DNA of 64,000 bases from Candidatus Nomurabacteria bacterium (GCA_028286645.1 JAQBRF010000004.1:205192-269191), one strand, 5' to 3'; shown: positions 42,967 through 52,959, numbered from the stretch's first letter. Numbers and translations: made by a program. The notes: a model not told the origin generated them from the letters alone.

Positions 42967-43058
42967 AGTCTTATAATTCTAGCATGCATGCTTTATAAAA
43001 GAAAAAGAACCTATGCAGCGGACTACATAGGTTCTACTCAATGCCGACGACGCCTATC

Positions 43059-43412
43059 TTAGGCTATCGCATCGAGACAGAAATCCCCGATGCTCACAGG
43101 TTCCGTCAACGCCACCACTTCCCTGTCCGACGAAAGTGACACGCCGGTTGAAACATTGGCTGACGCTGTCGGCTTTGAAGGTTTACACACGAACAGGAGG
43201 AATGGAAGGTGATGGACCTTCGAAATTCCTTGTCCTCCCACCCCGATGAGTGCCGTGTAAATACCAGCTTTTTTGATTACCGCCTCGGCCTTATCGCGCT
43301 CAGCCTCCGTTTTGTAATAAGCGATCAACAGTCGGTCGACGCCTTCCGGGAATAACGATTCCGAATCAGAATGATTGCTAGTCAATTGAAGCTCCTTGAT
43401 TAAAAAGATCAA
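43059..43412 (-). CDS. hypothetical protein (GC-rich insert)
   Basis: 117-aa ORF; hairpin plus T-run downstream at 42975-43040. Confidence 0.3.
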   Translation of the reverse strand: MIFLIKELQLTSNHSDSESLFPEGVDRLLIAYYKTEAERDKAEAVIKKAGIYTALIGVGGQGISKVHHLPFLLFVCKPSKPTASANVSTGVSLSSDREVVALTEPVSIGDFCLDAIA

Positions 43413-43738
43413 GGCTCAGATAATCATCCGAGCCGCCGCAAGTAAGCCCTCCGGCCGCTCACACCAGCCCTAGCTACGACTAGTTGGTGATGTATGCTTC
43501 GTACATGCCGTACGCCGCCTCATTAGAATGACAGATACTTATGTCATTCAGTATGCGTAGAATCTTTTTTAGGATACCATCTAATATATGATTCGTCAAT
43601 TATGAGCTAACGACTTATTGTAAAATTAAATGAAAATGGTATAATTCTTCTTATCGTAAAAGTGCAACTCTTTAATAGGATTCCTGTACTCTTACTGATA
43701 CCAAAAATCCTGGCATAAAGCCTTAATAATGGATGCAT

Positions 43739-43814
43739 GGGCCCTTAGCTCAATTGGTAGAGCGCCTGTTTTGCACTCAGGAGGCAAGCGGTTCGAATCC
43801 GCTAGGGTCCACCA
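43739..43814 (+). tRNA. tRNA-Ala (anticodon TGC)
   Basis: Acceptor gggccct/agggtcc with G3:U70; D-stem gctc/gagc; anticodon loop ttTGCac; T-loop ttcgaat; CCA encoded. Confidence 0.9.
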
Positions 43815-45285
43815 CAGAAGATGAAAGAGGCTGAAAGGCCTCTTTTGTCTTGAAAATAGAGGCTACTTCTGCGGTTTCATAATTTCCTTCGTTATACACC
43901 ACGCCCTGAGGAAAATGAAACCATTGTAGCTTAAGTTTCTTATCGAGATCTGCCTCTTTCCATATTGAGCTTGGAGATTTGAAGTATTCGCTGGCGACAT
44001 CAAACGCTTCTTCAACATTAATATGTGGTCCTTCATAAGAGATAAGTTTCGTCTGAGCCTGTGTAATATCATTTCCTACTAGTTCGAGCTGCTCTTTTAA
44101 AAGATGATCTGGTATCGTTCCTTCAATGTTCTTCGTTATAAGTATGGTTTGTCTCTCCTTAAGTAATGCGATATGTGATTCTAAACGCCTCTGCTCTTCG
44201 CTTCCCTTGTATATAGCCTTATCGAGTTTCTCTTTTACTTTTATCTTTAGCTTTTCCAGTTGCTCTGAGGAGAGCGTGAACTGGTCCATATACTTCATAA
44301 AACTTTCTTCAAATTTTTGCTTTGGGAAATTGGAATCCTTAGCATGAAAGCGATAATAAGGATATTTTGCCGATCTACCACTGCACCAACTTCCAGTGAG
44401 TTTCCTACCATCTTTGTTCGTAACAAATCTCCTTAGAGGAAAATCCTCGCTATCTAATTTGTAATGTGACATCTTCTTCCCACGATTCTTTAGTACCAGT
44501 TGCACTTGATTAAAAAGACTCTCATCAATTACTGACTCGAAAGCTCCCATGTGGGATTCTCCGAATTTTTCTATGCAACCATAATACAATTTGCTACGTA
44601 TGAGTTTATAGAAATATTGCTTGCTAAGTGGATTTCCATTCTTAAGACGCAGACCTTTTTCTGTCATAATCTTTCTTACTTCTTCCAATGAATGTGTATT
44701 TTTTGCAATAAGTATGAAAGTCTCTTTTACAAATGGTGCCATATGGCTTTTAGCAATAGTTGCCATTCCGGCCGTACGCACGTTCTCATAACCTATTGGT
44801 GCCATCCAAACATATCTCCCATCTCGCACCGCATCTCTCATTCCATTCGTACATCGTTCTGCTCTTACTTCGTTGTCGAATTGTGCAACATTAGCTAGCA
44901 TGTTTTCCATAAATCTTCCTGAAGGATTATTTTCAAAAGCTTCGCTTACAGATCTAATTTCTACGCCATATCTTTTAAGAAGAATACGTAATTGACTATA
45001 ATCATCCGTGTTCCTAGACAGACGATCTATTTTGTAAGAAATTACTGCACTAATGCGATTTTTTTTATCTGAACAGAAAAAAAGCATTTTTTGAAGTTCG
45101 GTTCTCATTGTCGTTTTCGCACTTTCGCCTTGTTCTACGAATACTTGTGCTACTTCATATCCATGCTTCAATGCATATTCTTTGCAAAGTTTTTCTTGAG
45201 TATTAAGACTATTCCCTTCATCAACTTGTTCTTTAGTCGATACTCTACAATAGAGCACTGCTCTTTTTTGATTTTGTTCTTGCAT
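43777..45285 (-). CDS. large serine recombinase (resolvase/invertase-type catalytic domain + recombinase domain + zinc ribbon/coiled coil)
   Basis: N-terminus AVLYCRVSTKEQ (catalytic Ser), ...YKIDRLSRN..., R/E-rich recombinase domain; 502 aa. Last ~13 codons are the reverse complement of the tRNA-Ala 3' half. Confidence 0.8.
   Translation of the reverse strand: MQEQNQKRAVLYCRVSTKEQVDEGNSLNTQEKLCKEYALKHGYEVAQVFVEQGESAKTTMRTELQKMLFFCSDKKNRISAVISYKIDRLSRNTDDYSQLRILLKRYGVEIRSVSEAFENNPSGRFMENMLANVAQFDNEVRAERCTNGMRDAVRDGRYVWMAPIGYENVRTAGMATIAKSHMAPFVKETFILIAKNTHSLEEVRKIMTEKGLRLKNGNPLSKQYFYKLIRSKLYYGCIEKFGESHMGAFESVIDESLFNQVQLVLKNRGKKMSHYKLDSEDFPLRRFVTNKDGRKLTGSWCSGRSAKYPYYRFHAKDSNFPKQKFEESFMKYMDQFTLSSEQLEKLKIKVKEKLDKAIYKGSEEQRRLESHIALLKERQTILITKNIEGTIPDHLLKEQLELVGNDITQAQTKLISYEGPHINVEEAFDVASEYFKSPSSIWKEADLDKKLKLQWFHFPQGVVYNEGNYETAEVASIFKTKEAFQPLSSSVVDPSGFEPLAS
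43824..43850. terminator. hairpin terminator after tRNA-Ala
   Basis: aagaggc-tgaaa-ggcctct followed by tttgtc. Confidence 0.45.
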
Positions 45286-45710
45286 GTTTTCTTTTGCGGT
45301 CTAGATAGATGTCCACTAACACTTCAGCGAGGTAATCTATGGAATCATCTTCAGATACGTGACTACTAATAAAACCCGGAGGGGAACTACGATACGGTGC
45401 GTTGTCGCTACACAAAGACGCTCGTAGGACCCCTTCGGGCTTCGTTTTGTCACCATATGCGTCTTTAGTGCGTAGCTTTTTCATTTTATCTCTCAATGTG
45501 AGTGAATATCTATCCAAATCGGTGGATAGTGTTTCGCTGGCGAAATGTCGGAAAACTGTCTACAGATTTCAAGCGAGTTCTCTGAAATCCCTTCGATATA
45601 AATACTTTTTCTGCAATGACACTCTTTTAATTTTCCGAGTACAGGAGCTTAAGAAAAGACTCTTGCGGGGTTATATCGTTCTACACATTACGAGAGTGTC
45701 CTGGAGTAAA

Positions 45711-45947
45711 TTAAGCCCTTAATTGGTCGTCCTCAGAGCTTTTCCTAGAAGCTTTAGTAAGTACATTTATAAGCTCCCTCCGGTCCTTTGCATCATAATC
45801 ATTTTTATCCACTACCTTTGAGAACCATCGCGATATTGTGCTTCTTGAGAATCCTTGTTTCTTTACAGCAAGATAAAGAGTGGGGAAGTCACCCAAGTTT
45901 ACGTGCTTCCTTCGTACACTATGAAATCTTTTTTGTATTGTTTTCAT
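45711..45947 (-). CDS. small HTH DNA-binding protein (excisionase/AlpA-like, possible RDF or regulator)
   Basis: LYLAVKKQGFSRSTISRWF is a helix-turn-helix; 78 aa; upstream of the recombinase. Confidence 0.4.
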   Translation of the reverse strand: MKTIQKRFHSVRRKHVNLGDFPTLYLAVKKQGFSRSTISRWFSKVVDKNDYDAKDRRELINVLTKASRKSSEDDQLRA

Positions 45948-46031
45948 ATTTGTGTGTTGGTTTGTTATAAATAAAAAAGATACGCCTTAAGCGTACATGT
46001 TAACTAAGTGACTCTCCGACGACTCACCAGA

Positions 46032-46700
46032 TTAGTAATTTCTTTTGACGGTTTTTTCACTCCATTTGAGCAGTCTGTCCTGGGTAGCGCAAGCGGCAGC
46101 AACTCTTTCATTCGTTCGCCCTATGGCGTCTCTTATACTTCTCTGTTCACTTTCTATTTTTTCCTTATCTATTGATTCAGAAGACGTTCCTGTAATTGCT
46201 TCATGTAGAATTTCCCAGTCGACAACTTGACCTTTTTTACAATGAAGAAAAAGATGCTCCAAAATAGAGTATTCTTTTTTATATTCAGGAATATCGATGA
46301 CGACATCCCCAATAATGAGCTTCGATGTCTCGGGCTCAAAGACAATTTTATGTTCAGCCAAGTTTAGTTTCTTTGCAGGTGATTTATTGGAATCATTAAC
46401 AAGCTTATCTTCATCTATCTTGCATACAGCATATAACCAGTCCCCGTTTTCACGTGAATAAACTCTTTCTTCAAAACTCATTACAAGACCATCTCTCTGC
46501 AATTTTCGGAGGGCCCTGATTTTTTCTTCATATTCATCTTCTAAAGAAGTCTCCATAAAACTTGAAGAAACTTCCGATAAAAAATACTCATACTGGGGAG
46601 AAGCTTTAACACTTCCTCTTTTTAAAAATTCACTCTTAAAAGAAGCAATAATGTCGGTCATATAGCTAGTTTCCGTCCCAACAATTTTTTTTATGTCCAT
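46032..46700 (-). CDS. hypothetical protein (island cargo)
   Basis: 222-aa ORF, no confident motif. Confidence 0.35.
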   Translation of the reverse strand: MDIKKIVGTETSYMTDIIASFKSEFLKRGSVKASPQYEYFLSEVSSSFMETSLEDEYEEKIRALRKLQRDGLVMSFEERVYSRENGDWLYAVCKIDEDKLVNDSNKSPAKKLNLAEHKIVFEPETSKLIIGDVVIDIPEYKKEYSILEHLFLHCKKGQVVDWEILHEAITGTSSESIDKEKIESEQRSIRDAIGRTNERVAAACATQDRLLKWSEKTVKRNY

Positions 46701-46785
46701 TGTTTTGGCAAGAAATTATTATTCCAAATGATCGTTTAATTATACCATTTAACCATTTATTAATTGGAAATTACATGATAAAATA

Positions 46786-46935
46786 GGCCTGCAGACAAGT
46801 GGATATTAATAAGGCGTATAAACGGATTTTGGGCGTTGCTCGTAGCCAGCATTGGCATCCTAAGTAGGAAACATATGAGCAACGGCAACGCTGTTCACTT
46901 GTCTGCACCTCTTGGGGTGCCTATTTTGTTTTTGT
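46786..46935 (+). promoter_or_regulatory. structured leader with antiterminator/terminator alternative upstream of small membrane protein gene
   Basis: Long stem ggcctgcagacaagtg...cacttgtctgcac enclosing nested hairpins. Its 3' arm overlaps the 5' arm of the terminator gcacc-tcttgg-ggtgc followed by ctattttgtttttg, 36 nt before the ATG at 46971. Confidence 0.4.
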
Positions 46936-46970
46936 GGCCTCAAGCTTAGTCAACAATCTTATAACACAAC

Positions 46971-47234
46971 ATGCTTCGTAAAATCATAGGAATCCTCATT
47001 TTTATACTTGTCATATACGGCACGTTCTTAATTCATCCACTGCTTGGGAGTATTGTCGTTCTGACAATCCTTCTTCTTATCCTATCGTTTGGGCACATTA
47101 AAAAATATGTGAAGGAAAGTAATATGACAGAAGATGAAAAAATCAAAAGAAAAATATTTGATGAAGTTTTGGACAAAAGAAGCAGGAGAATGGCTGAGGA
47201 AAGAGAGGAGAAAGCCGTTAGTAACCTACAGTAA
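46971..47234 (+). CDS. small membrane protein with charged C-terminal tail
   Basis: Two TM helices, then KR/E-rich tail. Confidence 0.4.
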   Translation: MLRKIIGILIFILVIYGTFLIHPLLGSIVVLTILLLILSFGHIKKYVKESNMTEDEKIKRKIFDEVLDKRSRRMAEEREEKAVSNLQ

Positions 47235-47633
47235 TCTTTGTATTCTTTGCAACACCTTATTAGGATCTTTTTTGATCTGATGTTCCCAGATGCGGACGTG
47301 TTTCCATCCAGATAGTTCCAAGAGGACTTTGTTTCTCCTGTCTCGCTTTATGTTTGCTTCTACTTTCTTCTCCCAAAATTCAACATTCGTTTTCGGGGGT
47401 GTGTAACATTTTTTGCCACCATGCCAAAAACATCCGTCAACGAATATCGCCAGCTTTTGTTTTGAAAAACTAAAGTCTGGAGTTCCATGAATCCTTTTGT
47501 TGTGTCTTCTCCATCCTGTTATTTTGTTCTCTCTGAAAAGCTCAACCATTCTGCCTTCAGTAGTCTTGTTTCCACGACTTTTGACAGAGGCCATTAATGC
47601 TGACCGCTTTTCCTTTGTTATGCGGTCCGCCAT
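47226..47633 (-). CDS. vsr: very-short-patch repair endonuclease (Vsr)
   Basis: ...PDFSFSKQKLAIFVDGCFWHG.. is the Vsr core; 135 aa; adjacent to a C5-MTase. Confidence 0.75.
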   Translation of the reverse strand: MADRITKEKRSALMASVKSRGNKTTEGRMVELFRENKITGWRRHNKRIHGTPDFSFSKQKLAIFVDGCFWHGGKKCYTPPKTNVEFWEKKVEANIKRDRRNKVLLELSGWKHVRIWEHQIKKDPNKVLQRIQRLL

Positions 47634-47635
47634 AG

Positions 47636-48715
47636 TTATCTGGTAAATCTTATTTGCAAATTAAGCTTCAATAACGTATCTCCTCCTTCCTTATAGATAT
47701 TGCCGAAAATGTGACGAGAAGTGCTTGGAGTGTCAAATTTTGTATTCCTGAAAAGATAGTCCCTAAAATCGTCGGCGTTGTAAACGTGGTAACAAACTAT
47801 TTCCCCGTCTTCCCTAACGACTATATAGCCTCCATGTGCCTTCAGAAGGCCGTCCCATGCTGTGTTCGGGACCATACCGAGAGCAATATTGTGAAGGAAG
47901 CTTTTTGTTTTGAATTCATAGTCCGAGGCATCAAGGTTGAAATGAAGAATCTTGATTTCTCCTTCGCCCAATTTCGTCACAAGATCTGGCAATAGCTTTC
48001 CCTTATCAGAATAGTAAGCCAATAACAGTTCTGCCACTATCTCAGGCAATACAGTGTCCACTTTTCTTAAGTTTCTAGTAAACGTATCTGAGCTCGCTCC
48101 TTTGAAGGTGAATGTGCCTCCAGCCTTAATAATTGCAGTGAGACGATCTCTCAATTTGGACCTACCCTGCAATGTATTTATCGTAGAAATTTGTTCCTCA
48201 TTCAATCCTTCAATTTTGTATATGAAGTTTGTAGCCGATGAAGCATTGAGCAAAGTTGCGGTGGAACCTAACATGGATTTTATACTGAATCCAACTTCTG
48301 GGACCGTACCCGTATGCATATCGTGAATCTTTAGTGTTATATCTTCCTTTCTTGAGTTGCCTGCGTTCAGTCTCTTGGCTTTAAAACGGTCCATGAGTTC
48401 TTCAGCAACAGGAACACCAAATGTCGTTTCCGAGCTTTCCTTTATTGCACCAAACACTTCTGTTATCTTTGATTTAAGATCAGATGCATCAACTAGGGCA
48501 ATTTCCACTCCTGCATCAAGTATTCTTATTTGACTGCCTTCAGAAAACTCATAATCCATTCTTCCCGTTGCTTCCTGTCTCACTATCTTAAGGACGGGGT
48601 AAAAAATATCTTCAATCTTTTGAAGGTTCGCATCAGCACCATTAAGCCTTCTTTCGGAAAGCAACTTAAGAAACGTATAGAATTCACTCCATTCCCCCTT
48701 ATTTCCTTTTATCAT
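47636..48715 (-). CDS. type II restriction endonuclease (HpaII-like gene order)
   Basis: 359-aa gene between the C5-MTase (17-nt overlap) and vsr (2-nt gap). The MTase-REase-Vsr order and lengths match HpaII-type CCGG systems. The REase itself was not checked against any reference; nuclease assignment is by context. Confidence 0.5.
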   Translation of the reverse strand: MIKGNKGEWSEFYTFLKLLSERRLNGADANLQKIEDIFYPVLKIVRQEATGRMDYEFSEGSQIRILDAGVEIALVDASDLKSKITEVFGAIKESSETTFGVPVAEELMDRFKAKRLNAGNSRKEDITLKIHDMHTGTVPEVGFSIKSMLGSTATLLNASSATNFIYKIEGLNEEQISTINTLQGRSKLRDRLTAIIKAGGTFTFKGASSDTFTRNLRKVDTVLPEIVAELLLAYYSDKGKLLPDLVTKLGEGEIKILHFNLDASDYEFKTKSFLHNIALGMVPNTAWDGLLKAHGGYIVVREDGEIVCYHVYNADDFRDYLFRNTKFDTPSTSRHIFGNIYKEGGDTLLKLNLQIRFTR

Positions 48716-49664
48716 ATTTTTTTAAGGTCTTTATCACTTCCTCTCCAACGGCTTGGATTGCGTTTATGGCCACGCTGTTCCCTAATTGCCTCATGGCTTG
48801 TACTTCAGACACTGGGAATTCAAACTCTTCAGGAAAACCCATCATTTTTTTTCCTTCCTTAGGGGTGAGTTTTCTGGTCTTGCCACTCACCAAATAAGTA
48901 TCCCAGTTTCTTCTGTCATTCAACCCAGAACCTCTCCCTCCCAAACGAAGTGTATACCCAATTTCCTTTGAACAGTTACCTCCAAAAATTTCCGACATGT
49001 TGGTTTTTAGTTCAATAGGGTCTGGAAATTTGAAAGGGATATTTTTATCGCGGAAACCCACCATATACAAACGCGGTCTGTGTTGTGGAAGGCCGAAATC
49101 GGAAGCCTTCACTATCTTCCAATAGAAAGAGTACCCGAGATCCTTTTCAATTGTTTCCTTGATTCTCGCAAAGGTTTTGCCATCATCATGCTTAAGGAGA
49201 TGTCTCACGTTTTCAATGAAAAAGGCGGCAGGTTTTTTTTCCTTAATGATTCTTGCTATGTCAAAGAAGAGAGTGCCTCGGGTATCATCAAATCCTTTCT
49301 TGTGGCCCGCTTGGCTAAACGCTTGGCAAGGAAAACCTCCCGTCAGAATATCAAAGTCTGGGATTTCTTTCTCATTTACCTTGGTTATATCGCCAGCGAA
49401 CAAATCGCTCTTGAACAACTGGGGTTCCATCTTTGAAAAGTTGTGGATGTATGTCGTTCTCGCATGCTTATCCCATTCGCTGGCAAAAACACACTTCGCT
49501 CCAAGATGGTGGAAAGCGATATGGAATCCTCCGATTCCAGCAAATAGGTCTATGAATGTATATTTCTTCCTGCTGGACTTCGACTTCATGTATTCTTTTA
49601 ATTCTACCATAGAACTACGGCATAGTTTCACTAAAAAATCATGTTTCCCTCTTGTGTTTTTCAA
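48699..49664 (-). CDS. DNA (cytosine-5)-methyltransferase
   Basis: Motif I FIDLFAGIGGF, motif IV GFPCQAFS, ENV motif (FIENVRHL), C-terminal QLGNSV. Confidence 0.85.
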   Translation of the reverse strand: MKNTRGKHDFLVKLCRSSMVELKEYMKSKSSRKKYTFIDLFAGIGGFHIAFHHLGAKCVFASEWDKHARTTYIHNFSKMEPQLFKSDLFAGDITKVNEKEIPDFDILTGGFPCQAFSQAGHKKGFDDTRGTLFFDIARIIKEKKPAAFFIENVRHLLKHDDGKTFARIKETIEKDLGYSFYWKIVKASDFGLPQHRPRLYMVGFRDKNIPFKFPDPIELKTNMSEIFGGNCSKEIGYTLRLGGRGSGLNDRRNWDTYLVSGKTRKLTPKEGKKMMGFPEEFEFPVSEVQAMRQLGNSVAINAIQAVGEEVIKTLKKYDKRK

Positions 49665-49967
49665 GAGTGTGCTTTATACTTCATAGGTAGATTGAAAACG
49701 CAATACAGAAGCTCGCTTGGTAGGGATACCAAGCATCGCCGAGCGACCGACACCACGAAGTAGCACCGAAATCCTTTAGACGGGCATTCTAGCGGGAACA
49801 ATCAAATGTTCCATGCTGGCAATCCACTAGTTATGGGAACACAGTAGCAATACTGCCGTTCCCGTGAGAGTGTCGGTCTAAGGGATTTTTCTTTTGTCAT
49901 CTAATCTTCAACCATAATTACGAGAAGCTTTCAGATTAGATTTGTGCAGCTAACACCGAATAATAAT

Positions 49968-50006
49968 TGGGTGGTAACTGGACGAATCTAGCAACAGGTT
50001 CGTCCA
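49968..50006 (+). terminator. intrinsic terminator
   Basis: ctggacgaa-tctagcaacagg-ttcgtccag followed by tttttgttt. Confidence 0.55.
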
Positions 50007-50116
50007 GTTTTTGTTTAACCGCCGTTTTCCTACATAAAAGGTGAGCGGTTCAGGGTGCAGAAGTCCTTATGCTGCTGCTGGCAGGACAACCCTCGGGGAA
50101 GATTTGAAACGACATC

Positions 50117-50317
50117 ATGTCTACTCAAAATCCCGTCTGTACATGTGCAGACATCTGCGTAGCTTACGTAACCCGAAATGGTAAACGGCGCTATGCTTCA
50201 ACATATGGTCATAAGTGCTGGCCTATTAAAGATAACCGTTCTTGCGCACTTCATAGCAAGAAAGCAAAAACCCCATCACAAGTTGTGACAGGATCTATGC
50301 TTAATCTAATCGCTTAA
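50117..50317 (+). CDS. small Cys-rich hypothetical protein (GC-rich)
   Basis: 66 aa, C-x-C-x3-C ... C ... C spacing suggests a zinc ribbon. Confidence 0.3.
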   Translation: MSTQNPVCTCADICVAYVTRNGKRRYASTYGHKCWPIKDNRSCALHSKKAKTPSQVVTGSMLNLIA

Positions 50318-50535
50318 GGAGTTTATACCTCCTGTGGCCCTAACATCCCGTAAGGGGTGTTTTGTATTCTAAGTATATCCAGTAGCAAGTCCATCGCAAA
50401 AGGATAACTACGGACCATTACTCTACACTTCTCAAGACGAAAAAGCAACTCTGGTTATGCCAGTTCTGTTTTCCTTGAAAATCCAAGAAAGATACTCCAA
50501 TTCTTTAAGCATTCGGTTTATATTTAAATTACCAG

Positions 50536-50592
50536 GGTCCACTAACAAAAACGAACTCAGGCCATAGGCCTGTTTTTGTTAGTGGACCCGTA
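50536..50592. repeat. long perfect hairpin
   Basis: gggtccactaacaaaaac-gaactc(aggcc ata ggcct)g-tttttgttagtggaccc is an 18-bp stem with a nested mini-hairpin. Confidence 0.6.
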
Positions 50593-50733
50593 AAGCACAA
50601 GAACTGCTTCTTGTGCGGATTCGAAAGCGGCAGGCATATTTCACTAGTAAGTGAAATGACGAGGAGGGGCCGGCGAGTCCGACGAACGGCGGTGAGAAGG
50701 AACTTGTCGGAGAAATTCCGCAGGGATCTACAG

Positions 50734-50761
50734 TTGACAAAATCTTTATTTATGCTAAGAT
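50734..50761 (+). promoter_or_regulatory. sigma70 promoter
   Basis: TTGACA-N16-TAAGAT upstream of the ATG at 50791. Confidence 0.5.
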
Positions 50762-50790
50762 GGGTTTGTCTTATTATTGGAGATCGGACA

Positions 50791-50958
50791 ATGATCAAAA
50801 CCATTTTCACGTTCGCCGTTGCAAACGCCCTCGGCCTGGCAATGATGATCTATTTTGACAAAAAGAAAAAGCGTCCGATGAGAAATCCAGCAATGTACAC
50901 AGTGGTGTATCTCATTGCTACCGCATTGGATGTGTCGATTGTTCACTTCGTTCTTTAA
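50791..50958 (+). CDS. small membrane protein (55 aa)
   Basis: RBS ggag 9 nt upstream; MIKTIFTFAVANALGLAMMIYF...; terminator follows. Confidence 0.4.
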   Translation: MIKTIFTFAVANALGLAMMIYFDKKKKRPMRNPAMYTVVYLIATALDVSIVHFVL

Positions 50959-50963
50959 TGCAT

Positions 50964-51008
50964 CCCGCCGCAAGCAATAGACACGCTTCGGCGGGTTTAT
51001 TGTTTTAG
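50964..51008 (+). terminator. intrinsic terminator
   Basis: cccgccg...cggcggg followed by tttattgtttt. Confidence 0.6.
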
Positions 51009-51083
51009 ATTATTAATTATGATGCCAAATCCATTAATATGAAGATCGCAATCAACACCAAGCAACCTAATCATATTTATCCC

Positions 51084-51392
51084 CTAATTAATCACTCCCG
51101 CTGAAATTTGTTTCACTTTTTTTATTAATCCATTAACATGAGCTAATTCTTCTTCCGCATTCGTCGCACCTTCCAGATCTTCTTTCATACGCCCAAGCTT
51201 TTCTAAAAATAAACCAGTTATCAGCATTTTATGCTGATATGGGGAATTTTTATCCTTCATATCTAACTCAAATCCAACTAACTTACTCTCTAATTCACTA
51301 AGATGTTGCTCATATCTATTTATAAGATCGGGCGGACCTTCATGCTCATTTCTGGCTATAAAGGGATTACCTGAATGATCTTCTAATTTCAT
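51084..51392 (-). CDS. hypothetical protein
   Basis: 102 aa, predicted helical. Confidence 0.35.
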   Translation of the reverse strand: MKLEDHSGNPFIARNEHEGPPDLINRYEQHLSELESKLVGFELDMKDKNSPYQHKMLITGLFLEKLGRMKEDLEGATNAEEELAHVNGLIKKVKQISAGVIN

Positions 51393-51474
51393 AACTTAAG
51401 TATACTACTTTCTCTATAAATAAATTATATGACTTCTCTCAGAGTACTGTTATAATAAAATATCAGAGCATATT

Positions 51475-51861
51475 ATGAATTCATCTCACGCAGTAGCCAT
51501 ACTAATAACAACACCAGATGGCATTCCTTTAGTGCGAGATCCAAAAAAGCCCGAACCTCGTTATTGGAAACTTCCAGGAGGAAGGAGCGAGGGTGAAGAA
51601 ACACCTAGAGAATGTGCTGTACGAGAGATCTACGAAGAACTGGGGCTACAGCTTAATCCAACAGACCTAAAAGTCATCGAACGCCAGGATAAGAGCAATT
51701 ATACTTTAACTTTTTTTAAAATAGAATTACCTCAATTTATAGGTCTAAAAGAAATTGGTAATGAACAGGAAGAAATCAAAGTATTCCATTCTCTTAAAGA
51801 AATCAGTGAGCTGGAAGATTCTTTCCCAAATCACAAAAAAATTATCAACCAGATAGTTTAG
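51475..51861 (+). CDS. NUDIX hydrolase
   Basis: Nudix box LPGGRSEGEETPRECAVREIYEELG. Confidence 0.7.
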   Translation: MNSSHAVAILITTPDGIPLVRDPKKPEPRYWKLPGGRSEGEETPRECAVREIYEELGLQLNPTDLKVIERQDKSNYTLTFFKIELPQFIGLKEIGNEQEEIKVFHSLKEISELEDSFPNHKKIINQIV

Positions 51862-51893
51862 TTAAACAGTCATTGGATTGCAGGTCGGGAAAT

Positions 51894-51926
51894 CAAAAAA
51901 TCCTCCATTCGGAGGATTTTTTGATT
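51894..51926. terminator. bidirectional intrinsic terminator
   Basis: aaaaaatcctcc-attc-ggaggatttttt between convergent genes. Confidence 0.7.
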
Positions 51927-51938
51927 AATAGAGAATTA

Positions 51939-52298
51939 CTATCTATTATCTTTAACTACTGATGGAAGGGCTAGAAGTATTACTCCTAGAACCACGTGTA
52001 GCCAAACATCGGCCTTGTTAGCAAGAATACCAAAGATGTTTCCATCTGCTGAGATAAGACCTACTACCGCAAGTATTAGGTAAATCACACCAAATGTCCT
52101 TAGCCATGTTGCTAGTGAATTTGGAGACGAAGTAGCTGCGAATAAAATAACAATACCGATTATTAAGTGAACTGCATCGTGAATGTGGTCAGTTTGGAAG
52201 AACCCGCTGGCTCCTACAATCCCAAGGCCTCCCACAAAGCCGAGTAGTCCTACTAGGACAAAAACTACACCCAGAATGACTGAAAGAGTTTTTAACAT
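51939..52298 (-). CDS. membrane protein
   Basis: 119 aa, four TM helices. Confidence 0.4.
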   Translation of the reverse strand: MLKTLSVILGVVFVLVGLLGFVGGLGIVGASGFFQTDHIHDAVHLIIGIVILFAATSSPNSLATWLRTFGVIYLILAVVGLISADGNIFGILANKADVWLHVVLGVILLALPSVVKDNR

Positions 52299-52449
52299 AA
52301 TGTTTTATTATTTATTAATTTTTCCGCCTCCTATATAAGCCGATATTTTAATGCCTACATCAGGAAGGAATACCCCTATTATACTATAAAGCAATACAAT
52401 ACAAAGTTGACAAATGGGATAATAAATTACTGGTGTATAATTTAATGAT

Positions 52450-52959
52450 ATGAAAAAAGATGAATATTTGATCAATAAAGGTGTAAATAGATGGATGGTT
52501 TTCTTTACAATTGTGTTTATTATTATTACATCACTTTTTTATTACATCCTTTATACAGAAAACAAGCTCCCGACTAGCATTACAATATGGGACTTCGTGA
52601 TTCTCGCCCTAGCCACATTTCGTCTTGTGCGTTTATTCGTTTATGATGCTATTTTTAAGTTTATACAGGAAAATCTAATGGACGCTATAGAGATAATGGA
52701 TAATGGTGAGCTGTTAATGACTCATACGCTTGCACAATCCTCTCTTAAAAGAACACTTTATAAACTAGCAGTATGCCCATGGTGCATGGGAGTATGGATA
52801 GCGCTTTGCGGAGCGTTCGTCTACTATCTACTTCCTGGATCATACTTCTTATTCGTTGTTCTTGCGATTTCCTCATTTGCTTCTATGCTACAAGTATTTT
52901 CCAATTTAATAGGATGGAGTGCAGAATACAGAAAACTAAAGGCAGAAAAATTCGTGTAA
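52450..52959 (+). CDS. DUF1360-like membrane protein
   Basis: CPWCMGVW motif within a polytopic membrane protein. Confidence 0.45.
   Translation: MKKDEYLINKGVNRWMVFFTIVFIIITSLFYYILYTENKLPTSITIWDFVILALATFRLVRLFVYDAIFKFIQENLMDAIEIMDNGELLMTHTLAQSSLKRTLYKLAVCPWCMGVWIALCGAFVYYLLPGSYFLFVVLAISSFASMLQVFSNLIGWSAEYRKLKAEKFV

What the first reader, a model, noticed from the sequence alone, without database searches (positions are those of the whole stretch)
43739..50600. tRNA-Ala-associated island: serine recombinase ending inside the tRNA, excisionase-like HTH, R-M/Vsr, and structured RNAs
The large serine recombinase ORF (43777-45285, minus) continues through a hairpin terminator. Its last ~13 codons are antisense to the 3' half of tRNA-Ala(TGC), so the recombinase gene and the tRNA are physically interlocked. 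Cargo then includes a 78-aa HTH protein, a 222-aa unknown, a structured leader, the C5-MTase/REase/Vsr operon and a GC-rich structured non-coding region. Host-like AT-rich genes resume near 50600. Serine integrases targeting a tRNA 3' end, and an int ORF overlapping the attachment tRNA, are both unusual. This is a compact defence island whose mobilisation machinery looks intact.
Basis: partly seen in the sequence, partly recalled or inferred. Interest (0 to 1): 0.7.

Follow-up and report, generated by a model that had tools for sequence, protein, structure and literature searches.

The report
Integrase gene split by tRNA insertion
A 6.7-kb mobile island carrying a restriction-modification system sits at the end of a tRNA-Ala gene because its serine integrase recombines at a site inside its own coding sequence; insertion therefore swaps the enzyme's last helix for codons read off the tRNA, a layout shared by relatives in several phyla that I did not find described for serine integrases.

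Summary
tRNA-Ala(UGC) lies at 43739-43814 (+). A 502-aa large serine recombinase ORF (43777-45285, -) ends 38 nt inside it, after reading through a terminator hairpin.

The overlap has a specific cause: the element's attP lies inside the int ORF. The native last 34 codons of int, a conserved helix, sit 6.7 kb away at 50542-50432 (-). They are preceded by the same 9-bp core (AGGGTCCAC) that ends the tRNA, and followed by the original tRNA terminator. The island is therefore 43813-50542.

- **Integrated relatives:** in 39 of 80 loci from Patescibacteria, Acidobacteriota and other phyla, int stops inside an antisense tRNA. Displaced tails lie 4.6-10.3 kb upstream.
- **Free forms:** three relatives with an intact-tail int are on circular 10-12 kb contigs.
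- **Empty site:** relatives with 78% identical serS have this tRNA-Ala without an island.
- **Cargo:** an HpaII-type restriction-modification system plus Vsr, which varies between relatives.

Not supported: the "excisionase-like HTH". Not shown: excision of this copy, or any function for the tail swap.

Verdict: a new variant of serine-integrase elements. It is analogous to archaeal SSV-type "suicidal" tyrosine integrases.

The parts
43739..43814 (+). tRNA-Ala(UGC), intact, with the G3:U70 pair kept. It is the B arm of attL. The last 2 nt of the encoded CCA come from the element.
   Evidence: ARAGORN; Rfam 67.4 bits; sequence.
43804..43812 (+). attL core AGGGTCCAC (acceptor-stem 3' strand, discriminator and C74). 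The crossover must lie within it.
   Evidence: the 9-mer occurs only here and at 50534, against 0.14 expected.
43824..43851 (+). Element-supplied intrinsic terminator for the tRNA (stem AAAGAGGC/GCCTCTTT followed by a T-run). It is embedded antisense in the int codons for K-E-A-F-Q-P-L.
   Evidence: The hairpin is kept, with differing but complementary stem sequences, in 18 of 22 family members, including the circular forms.
43777..45285 (-). Large serine recombinase, prophage form (502 aa). Residues 1-493 are native. The last 9 residues (PSGFEPLAS) are read from the antisense of the tRNA acceptor and T arm.
   Evidence: Pfam. More than 1600 homologs. Full-length fold matches to Bxb1, PhiC31 and LI integrase complexes for homolog P0006.
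45245..45517 (-). Small ORF (about 79-90 aa; likely ATG at 45484) overlapping the int start. It is a conserved partner of int and a candidate regulator or directionality factor.
   Evidence: tblastn finds it directly upstream of int in 15 loci, including Bacteroidota. Alignment with L081 and L082. No family match.
45711..45947 (-). 78-aa ORF of unknown function, with an HTH-like 'SRSTISRW' stretch. It is shared with some relatives.
   Evidence: tblastn hits in L003, L043, L011 and L006. No Pfam, PHROG, PADLOC or NCBIfam match.
46032..46700 (-). 222-aa ORF related to part of the 406-415-aa proteins of the circular relatives. It has a weak winged-helix hint.
   Evidence: 35% identity over 93 aa to L082. 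Trans_reg_C at E = 0.16, which is only a hint.
46971..47234 (+). 87-aa predicted membrane protein (cargo).
   Evidence: ORF; weak match to phrog_502 'membrane protein'.
47226..49664 (-). Cargo operon: C5 cytosine methyltransferase (48699-49664), HpaII-family restriction endonuclease (47636-48715) and Vsr mismatch endonuclease (47226-47633).
   Evidence: Pfam; PADLOC; NCBIfam. Absent from most relatives.
49765..49895 (+). Strongly structured RNA-like element: a long imperfect hairpin followed by a T-run. Its identity is unknown.
   Evidence: Fold of 49690-49900: -81.7 kcal/mol, z = -7.4 on the + strand against -3.4 on the - strand. No Rfam match. Not found in the other loci.
50117..50317 (+). 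66-aa Cys-rich ORF followed by a terminator-like hairpin at 50342-50361.
   Evidence: No family match.
50432..50542 (-). Displaced native 3' end of int: VD-PGNLNINRMLKELEYLSWIFKENRTGITRVAFSS-stop. It is in the same codon phase as int across the core.
   Evidence: tblastn of native tails; translation. A profile built only from 13 intact proteins scores it 26.2 bits, E = 5e-7 against the window's six frames, as a unique hit. The rejoined 527-aa protein aligns end to end with intact homologs.
50534..50542 (+). attR core AGGGTCCAC.
50543..50580 (+). Original host flank of the tRNA (B' arm), with its own terminator CAGGCC-ATA-GGCCTG followed by TTTTTG.
   Evidence: The layout matches the empty sites of L165, L164 and L163.

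Best explanation
Window 43813-50542 is an integrated 6.73-kb element of a large family of small integrative circular elements.

**Shown by sequence comparison**
- Its large serine recombinase uses an attP that lies inside its own ORF. The site falls in a flexible linker just before a conserved C-terminal helix.
- Recombination with attB, the 3' end of tRNA-Ala(UGC), occurs within the shared core GTCCAC (9 bp shared in this copy).
- Integration has three consequences:
  1. The tRNA stays intact. The element supplies its last bases and a new intrinsic terminator, which is encoded antisense within int codons.
  2. int keeps residues 1-493 and gains 9 codons read from the antisense of the tRNA.
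  3. The native last 34 codons are carried to the other end of the element, next to the old tRNA terminator.
- Excision would rejoin them in frame into a 527-aa protein.

**Inferred**
- The crossover is the usual 2-bp staggered exchange of serine integrases.
- The full-length enzyme made from the free circle is the integration-proficient form. The tail-swapped prophage form is a parked or altered-activity form, so integration state feeds back on the integrase.
- The conserved small ORF overlapping the int start (45245-45517) is the most likely accessory or directionality factor.
- This copy has no replication or transfer genes. It persists by integration and by the addictive restriction-modification cargo, and would need helpers to spread.
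For: - **Enzyme.** Resolvase plus Recombinase domains. The AlphaFold model of the intact homolog P0006 matches full-length serine integrase-DNA complexes: 9dxh at E = 2e-18, also Bxb1 9iu2, PhiC31 9rah and LI 4kis.
- **Tails of homologs.** About 88 of the 120 closest homologs end in tRNA-antisense peptides (VDPxGxEPxT...). At least 13 others have a conserved tail instead (VDxxxxFWNQFxxExEYLxxIL).
- **Tail in the window.** That tail is found once in the window, at 50542-50432 (-). It scores E = 5e-7 with a profile that excludes it, and it is in phase with int across the core.
- **Core.** AGGGTCCAC occurs only at the two junctions, against 0.14 expected.
- **Same anatomy in relatives.** Displaced tails lie 4.6-10.3 kb upstream of int in L002, L003, L004, L006, L007, L011, L025, L040 and L043. 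They share a GTGGAC core and have host terminator hairpins outside it. The anatomy recurs in distant Acidobacteriota-type loci at tRNA-Glu and tRNA-Ala(GGC), with 11-16-nt repeats.
- **Free circular forms.** Contigs L081, L082 and L167 carry an intact-tail int and have exact 30-, 30- and 24-nt terminal overlaps. Long ORFs close across each junction, and in L082 a gene split between the contig ends is rebuilt.
- **Empty site.** L165 and L166 (serS 78% identical) have serS, then tRNA-Ala, then homologs of window genes that lie beyond the island. There is no int, and a terminator directly follows GGGTCCAC.
- **Occupied by a different element.** L001 has a different element (int 65% identical) at the same serS-linked tRNA.
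- **Tail structure.** The rejoined window protein is predicted to have a disordered linker at 486-495, containing the junction V492-D493. A helix follows at 499-519, with pLDDT about 85 over residues 501-510 (series; result). P0006 gives the same picture.
- **Terminator.** The hairpin is conserved, with differing but complementary stems, in 18 of 22 members.
Against: - There is no direct evidence that this particular copy excises. Exact-match scans of JGI metagenome contigs for its predicted empty attB and its attP junction found nothing.
- This copy has no replication, packaging or transfer genes. Its 222-aa ORF looks like a shortened version of a 406-415-aa gene of the circles.
- No recognisable directionality factor was found, and the small ORFs match no family.
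- Pfam does not detect the zinc-ribbon domain, and the four Cys are absent.
- The regulatory meaning of the tail swap is pure inference. Integrated copies keep open, conserved int bodies with arbitrary tRNA-derived tails, which could equally mean the tail is dispensable.
- Bacteroidota relatives keep an intact tail while in the chromosome.
- The structure models are of moderate quality (pLDDT about 75, pTM about 0.4).
Confidence: 0.85

Rival explanations
1. Same integrated element and same attP-in-ORF geometry, but the tail swap is a neutral by-product of packing attP into the 3' end of int. On this view the C-terminal helix is dispensable for recombination and has no regulatory role.
For: - Integrated copies carry tRNA-derived tails of arbitrary sequence and length, from 9 to about 20 residues and from five tRNA species. 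Their int bodies nevertheless stay open and conserved.
- The junction lies in a predicted disordered linker.
Against: - The tail motif is conserved from Patescibacteria to Bacteroidota and to Acidobacteriota-type members.
- Displaced tails remain uninterrupted in all 10 integrated Patescibacteria copies where one was found, 9 related loci plus the window. That is unexpected for useless sequence.
Confidence: 0.4
2. The island is a decaying remnant that can no longer move. It was once mobile but is now fixed at the tRNA and retained for its restriction-modification system.
For: - There are no replication or transfer genes, and the 222-aa gene is shortened.
- It is smaller (6.7 kb) than the free circles (10-12 kb).
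- No junction sequences were found in metagenomes.
Against: - The int ORF, its catalytic residues, the partner small ORF and the displaced tail are all intact.
- The two cores are identical over 9 bp.
- Other integrated relatives are as small as 4.6-4.9 kb.
Confidence: 0.25
3. An ancient, fixed host arrangement: a domesticated recombinase gene that merely happens to overlap a tRNA, with no element at all.
For: The tRNA-int overlap recurs across many genomes and phyla.
Against: - Empty sites exist in relatives.
- Different elements, sizes and cargo occupy the same tRNA.
- Targets include Ala, Glu, Lys, Val and Leu tRNAs.
- Circular forms exist.
- The displaced tail and the core repeat define two ends.
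Confidence: 0.03
4. Assembly or annotation artefact: a chimeric contig, or a sequencing error that removes the true int stop codon.
For: The window comes from a metagenome-assembled genome.
Against: The same read-through into a tRNA is seen in dozens of independent assemblies. The missing tail is found in phase at the other end of the island.
Confidence: 0.02

Closest known systems
Phage and ICE large serine integrases (Bxb1, PhiC31, A118/LI, TP901-1; SCCmec CcrB is the best NCBIfam hit)
   Same: - Catalytic Resolvase domain, Recombinase domain, a beta-hairpin and a long coiled coil.
- Full-length fold matches to solved integrase-DNA complexes.
- A short identity core between attP and attB, 6-9 bp in the Patescibacteria members, and int at the edge of the element.
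   Different: - The target is the 3' end of a tRNA gene. This was reported as not previously known for serine integrases (PMC7192596), and tRNA is not mentioned in the 6,207-enzyme survey PMC10083194.
- attP lies inside the int ORF, so integration exchanges the last 34 residues.
- The zinc-ribbon Cys ligands are absent, and Pfam Zn_ribbon_recom is not detected.
- No NCBIfam model reaches its cut-off.
SSV-type 'suicidal' integrases of archaeal viruses and plasmids (SSV1, pT26-2)
   Same: attP lies within the integrase ORF, the target is a tRNA gene, and integration partitions the int gene between the two ends of the element (PMC7253208).
   Different: - Those are tyrosine recombinases of archaea.
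- Integration there splits int into two inactive pseudogenes.
- Here the enzyme is a bacterial serine recombinase, only the C-terminal helix is displaced, and the body remains an open 502-aa ORF.
Integration-dependent immunity of mycobacteriophages (BPs, Brujita, MabB/MabK)
   Same: attP lies inside a coding sequence. Integration at a tRNA 3' end replaces the C-terminal 20-35 residues, sometimes adding a few host-encoded residues, and the tRNA is transcribed towards the truncated gene (PMC8092301).
   Different: The gene split there is the repressor, and the enzyme is a tyrosine integrase. The documented role, removal of a degradation tag, is not shown here.
tRNA-targeting genomic islands with tyrosine integrases (Islander type)
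   Same: Insertion at a tRNA 3' end with restoration of the tRNA, int next to the tRNA, and variable cargo.
   Different: The recombinase family differs. No long displaced tRNA fragment is present: only 9 bp are shared here, and no other tRNA piece occurs in the window.

Membership tests
Large serine recombinase (serine integrase) | N-terminal Resolvase catalytic domain with the nucleophilic serine | tested here: met
   PF00239 at 1.9e-32, residues 9-158. The R14-V15-S16-T17 motif and other residues are invariant in the family alignment.
Large serine recombinase (serine integrase) | Recombinase domain (PF07508) after helix E | tested here: met
   30.7 bits against a cut-off of 21.1, residues 183-268.
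Large serine recombinase (serine integrase) | Zinc-ribbon domain with an embedded coiled-coil motif | tested here: inconclusive
   - Pfam Zn_ribbon_recom is not detected, and there is only one Cys in the region.
- The models do show a beta-hairpin at about 296-312 and a coiled coil of about 75 residues at 340-415.
- Full-length Foldseek matches to integrase-DNA complexes were obtained.
Large serine recombinase (serine integrase) | Short att sites with a small identity core and a 2-bp crossover | tested here: inconclusive
   The identity core is 6-9 bp at Patescibacteria tRNA-Ala sites and 11-16 bp in distant members. The crossover dinucleotide cannot be mapped in silico.
Large serine recombinase (serine integrase) | Separate recombination directionality factor for excision | not testable with these tools
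   Only a candidate exists: a conserved small ORF overlapping the int start, with no family match.
Integrative mobile element | Two junctions sharing a core, an empty site in relatives, and a free circular form | tested here: met
   - Core repeat.
- Empty sites in L165, L166, L164 and L163.
- Circular relatives L081, L082 and L167.
- For this exact copy no circle or empty site was found.
SSV-type suicidal integrase | Tyrosine recombinase catalytic fold | tested here: not met
   The enzyme is a serine recombinase.
SSV-type suicidal integrase | attP inside the int ORF, so that integration partitions the gene | tested here: met
SSV-type suicidal integrase | Integration yields two inactive pseudogenes | tested here: not met
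   The prophage int remains a 502-aa open ORF with all conserved residues. Only 34 codons are displaced.
Islander-type tRNA island | Tyrosine integrase and a displaced tRNA fragment of tens of bp as direct repeat | tested here: not met
   No second tRNA fragment is found with up to 3 mismatches, and no long direct repeat.
Type II restriction-modification system, HpaII-like, with Vsr | Adjacent C5 methyltransferase, HpaII-family endonuclease and Vsr | tested here: met
   CCGG specificity was not tested.
Excisionase (Xis/HTH_17-type) for the 78-aa ORF | Match to an excisionase or MerR-type HTH family | tested here: not met
   No Pfam hit even at E <= 1, and no PHROG, PADLOC or NCBIfam hit.

The most novel reading that the evidence does not exclude
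The exchange of the integrase's C-terminal helix is a built-in sensor of integration state. On this reading only the full-length enzyme made from the free circle integrates efficiently. The tail-swapped prophage enzyme has altered directionality, stability or activity. This would be a self-encoded control of directionality in a serine integrase, operating across several phyla at tRNA genes.
Probability: 0.25. Interest if true: 0.85.

Novelty: new variant of a known kind. Interest (0 to 1): 0.72.

Why it matters
- **Target choice.** Serine integrases are central tools for genome engineering, and they are thought to avoid tRNA genes. This family targets tRNA 3' ends (Ala, Glu, Lys, Val, Leu) in Patescibacteria, Acidobacteriota and other phyla.
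- **Gene architecture.** attP sits inside the integrase gene, so the protein itself changes on integration. Until now that architecture was known only for archaeal tyrosine integrases and for phage repressors.
- **Patescibacteria mobile elements.** The finding defines a family of small (about 5-12 kb) integrative circular elements in Patescibacteria, whose mobile elements are poorly known. It shows they carry defence cargo.
- **Practical use.** Predicted attP/attB pairs are given for testing, including a conserved, nearly universal target.
- **Annotation.** Hundreds of database 'proteins' in this family carry C-termini that are tRNA-antisense translations.

Tried and rejected
- **tRNA fragments as att repeats.** Searched for a second copy of either tRNA half, with up to 3 mismatches, and for long direct repeats. 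None were found. The ends were found only through the displaced protein tail.
- **Known RNA families.** Rfam at E <= 1 over 40-54 kb, and at E <= 10 on the two non-coding stretches, returned only the tRNA.
- **GC-rich spacer 43040-43540.** It is not significantly structured, with z about -1.2 to -1.3.
- **Viral origin.** IMG/VR holds no close relative; the best hit is 39% identical over part of the protein.
- **This element's own junctions.** Exact scans of metagenome contigs for its empty attB and its attP junction gave 0 hits each. That collection may simply not contain this population.
- **Consensus fold of the embedded terminator.** RNAalifold predicted nothing, because loop lengths shift the register of the ungapped alignment. 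Per-sequence folds were used instead.
- **Biased first profile.** The first tail profile included the window's own tail, which inflated its E-value to 3.7e-13. It was redone without the window.
- **Small ORFs.** Pfam, PHROG, PADLOC and NCBIfam searches gave nothing usable for the 78-aa, 90-aa, 222-aa and 66-aa ORFs.
- **Dyad symmetry of attP and attB.** Inspected by eye. It cannot be separated from coding constraints, so no claim is made.

Full report
**1. Observation**

- ARAGORN and Rfam place an intact tRNA-Ala(UGC) at 43739-43814 (+).
- The 502-aa ORF 43777-45285 (-) has Pfam Resolvase (1.9e-32) and Recombinase (30.7 bits) domains.
- It has no stop codon before the tRNA. It reads through the hairpin AAAGAGGC/GCCTCTTT at 43824-45 and ends 38 nt inside the tRNA.
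- The Vsr, HpaII-family endonuclease and C5 methyltransferase genes are confirmed.
- The host is a Candidatus Nomurabacteria genome assembled from a metagenome. The left flank gene is serS.

**2. Why the ORF runs into the tRNA**

The recombinase has more than 1,600 homologs. The best 120 are 52-66% identical and about 510 aa long.

- About 88 of those 120 end in peptides such as VDPTGLEPATPSLQMRCSTR. These are translations of the antisense of a tRNA acceptor and T arm.
- At least 13 others diverge after the same 'VD' into a conserved tail, VDxxxxFWNQFxxExEYLxxIL.
- tblastn of those tails hits the window once, at 50575-50465 (-). The translation is LLVDPGNLNINRMLKELEYLSWIFKENRTGITRVAFSS-stop.
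- A profile built only from 13 intact proteins scores this segment 26.2 bits. That is E = 5e-7 against all six-frame segments of the window, and the next hit has E = 0.09.
- Both places contain AGGGTCCAC: 43804-43812, the end of the tRNA, and 50534-50542. The 9-mer occurs nowhere else in the window, against 0.14 expected.
- GTG-GAC-CCT is in the same codon phase at both places. Joining them gives a 527-aa protein that aligns end to end with the intact homologs.
- To the right of 50542 lies a terminator, CAGGCC-ATA-GGCCTG followed by a T-run.

The anatomy from left to right is therefore:
- tRNA | core | int body ... cargo ... int tail | core | old tRNA terminator.

This is an element of 6,730 bp whose attP lies inside int.

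**3. The same anatomy elsewhere**

A scan of one genome per species returned 80 loci.

- In 39 of them the int stop codon lies inside an antisense tRNA, with 38-71 nt of overlap. The tRNAs are Ala-UGC 12, Glu 12, Lys 9, Ala-GGC 5 and Val 1. In two further loci the ORF runs through a tRNA-Leu.
- In nine Patescibacteria loci a displaced tail lies on the int strand 4.6-10.3 kb upstream. It begins at a GTGGAC core and is preceded by a host terminator hairpin.
- Members only 31-35% identical, from loci labelled Acidobacteriota and unclassified bacteria, show the same layout. They have 11-16-nt repeats of the tRNA-Glu or tRNA-Ala(GGC) end, followed by ...SWNxVxxWLxxL... tails.
- Cargo differs between loci. 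Only a small ORF overlapping the int start is widely shared. The restriction-modification genes are not.

**4. Free forms and empty sites**

- Three native-tail proteins (P0006, P0012, P0100) sit on Logan contigs of 12.2, 10.4 and 10.3 kb. The ends of these contigs overlap exactly by 30, 30 and 24 nt.
- After circularisation, long ORFs cross each junction. In L082 a gene split between the contig ends is rebuilt into a homolog of an intact L081 gene.
- These circles carry a helicase-like gene and other shared genes. They have no close relative in IMG/VR.
- Relatives with serS 78% identical (L165, L166) have serS, then tRNA-Ala, then homologs of window genes that lie beyond the island. There is no int, and the tRNA end GGGTCCAC is followed directly by a terminator.
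- L164 and L163 show the same tRNA 3' flank.
- L001 has a different element (int 65% identical) at the same serS-linked tRNA.

**5. The enzyme**

- The AlphaFold model of P0006 (pLDDT 75.9) matches full-length serine integrase-DNA complexes: 9dxh at 2e-18, also Bxb1 9iu2, PhiC31 9rah and LI 4kis.
- The rejoined window protein gives the same domain order:
  - catalytic domain and helix E;
  - recombinase domain;
  - beta-hairpin;
  - coiled coil at about 340-415;
  - a small C-terminal domain;
  - a low-confidence linker at 486-495 that contains the junction V492-D493;
  - a terminal helix at 499-519, with pLDDT about 85 over residues 501-510.
- The gene is thus cut in a linker, and a discrete helix is displaced.
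- Pfam does not detect the zinc ribbon, and the Cys ligands are missing.

**6. The embedded terminator**

- About 10 nt beyond the core, on the tRNA strand, 18 of 22 family members have a stable hairpin (-12 to -19 kcal/mol) followed by a T-run. This includes the circular forms.
- The stems differ between members but stay complementary: GAGGC/GCCTC, GACGC/GCGTC, GACGCC/GGCGTC, TCCGCAT/ATGCGGA and TCCACGT/ACGTGGA.
- On the other strand the same bases encode the conserved K-[ED]-A-F... stretch of Int.
- After integration this hairpin replaces the tRNA's own terminator.

**7. Mechanism: shown and inferred**

- Shown by comparison: the two ends, the core, the in-frame split of int, restoration of the tRNA, mobility of the family, and the variable cargo.
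- Inferred: the 2-bp crossover within GTCCAC, a role for the small ORF at 45245-45517 as accessory factor, and a functional consequence of the tail swap.
- I favour a regulatory or 'parking' effect. The tail is conserved across phyla, and displaced tails stay intact.
- The neutral alternative is nearly as likely, because prophage copies carry arbitrary tRNA-derived tails.
- For this copy, excision is unproven, and it lacks replication and transfer genes.

**8. Comparison with known systems**

- It is a large serine recombinase by domains and fold. No NCBIfam model reaches its cut-off.
- Targeting of tRNA genes by serine integrases was described as unreported, with only 14 uncertain cases out of 297 (PMC7192596).
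- The large survey of 6,207 enzymes does not mention tRNA at all (PMC10083194).
- An attP inside the integrase ORF is the hallmark of archaeal SSV-type 'suicidal' tyrosine integrases (PMC7253208).
- C-terminal replacement on integration at a tRNA is known for mycobacteriophage repressors (PMC8092301).
- I found no description of either feature for a serine integrase. The literature library searched is incomplete.

**9. Verdict**

The finding is real, and its interpretation is supported and extended. I rate it a new variant of a known kind and score its interest at 0.72.

Noticed in passing
window 49765-49895 (+): A roughly 130-nt long imperfect hairpin followed by a T-run, lying between the methyltransferase start and the 66-aa ORF. 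The fold z-score is -7.4 on the + strand. It has no Rfam match and is not found in the other loci fetched. It may be a cargo small RNA or a regulatory element of the restriction-modification operon.
   Followed up: partly
window 45245-45517 (-); L081 7933-8199; L082 302-568: A small ORF (64-90 aa, motif SEDDxxDYLAEVLVD) always overlaps or abuts the int start. It is conserved from Patescibacteria to Bacteroidota and matches no family. It is a candidate partner or directionality factor of this integrase family.
   Followed up: partly
L036 11466-11902 and 12645-13084; L014 11449-12045 and 13899-14497; L034 11470-11577 and 12165-12272: In Bacteroidota relatives, including the cultured Mucilaginibacter phenanthrenivorans, int keeps its tail. 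The tail plus the downstream gene is repeated in tandem 0.7-2.5 kb further on. The repeat starts exactly at the codon equivalent to the Patescibacteria crossover point. This suggests the same intragenic site is used there with a non-tRNA target, or with cassette-like units.
   Followed up: partly
L002 1159-1233 and 2371-2436: Two different displaced int tails lie upstream of a single int at one tRNA-Ala. This suggests serial insertions at the same site, with loss of the older int body.
   Followed up: no
L081, L082, L167, L168 (whole contigs): These are circular 9-12 kb elements that share a DUF5659 protein, a 460-484-aa protein and a Cys-rich protein of about 200 aa. L081 also has a helicase-like gene. 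They are not represented in IMG/VR, and whether they are plasmids or viruses of Patescibacteria is open. L169 instead carries ArdC-like and TrwB-like genes.
   Followed up: partly
window 46834-46928 vs L168 5386-5480: The intergenic region upstream of the 222-aa ORF is 73% identical over 96 nt to the region upstream of the homologous 406-aa gene of a related element. It may be a shared operator or an origin.
   Followed up: no
window 42967-43738: A 772-nt GC-rich spacer (up to 51% GC) lies between serS and tRNA-Ala. It contains a 117-aa ORF (43059-43412, -) with no family match. Relatives have only about 160 nt here. It is not significantly structured and has no Rfam match.
   Followed up: partly
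window 50611-52959: The five ORFs between the island and the 173-aa gene, a NUDIX hydrolase among them, are missing from the syntenic region of L165 and L166. This may be a second variable segment, possibly an older insertion next to the same tRNA.
   Followed up: no
window 50117-50317 (+): A 66-aa Cys- and Lys-rich ORF with its own terminator-like hairpin (50342-50361) lies just inside the right end of the island. It matches no family.
   Followed up: no
protein database entries P0002-P0120: Most database proteins of this family carry C-termini that are translations of tRNA antisense strands. Gene callers therefore report hybrid prophage-form proteins as if they were native.
   Followed up: yes
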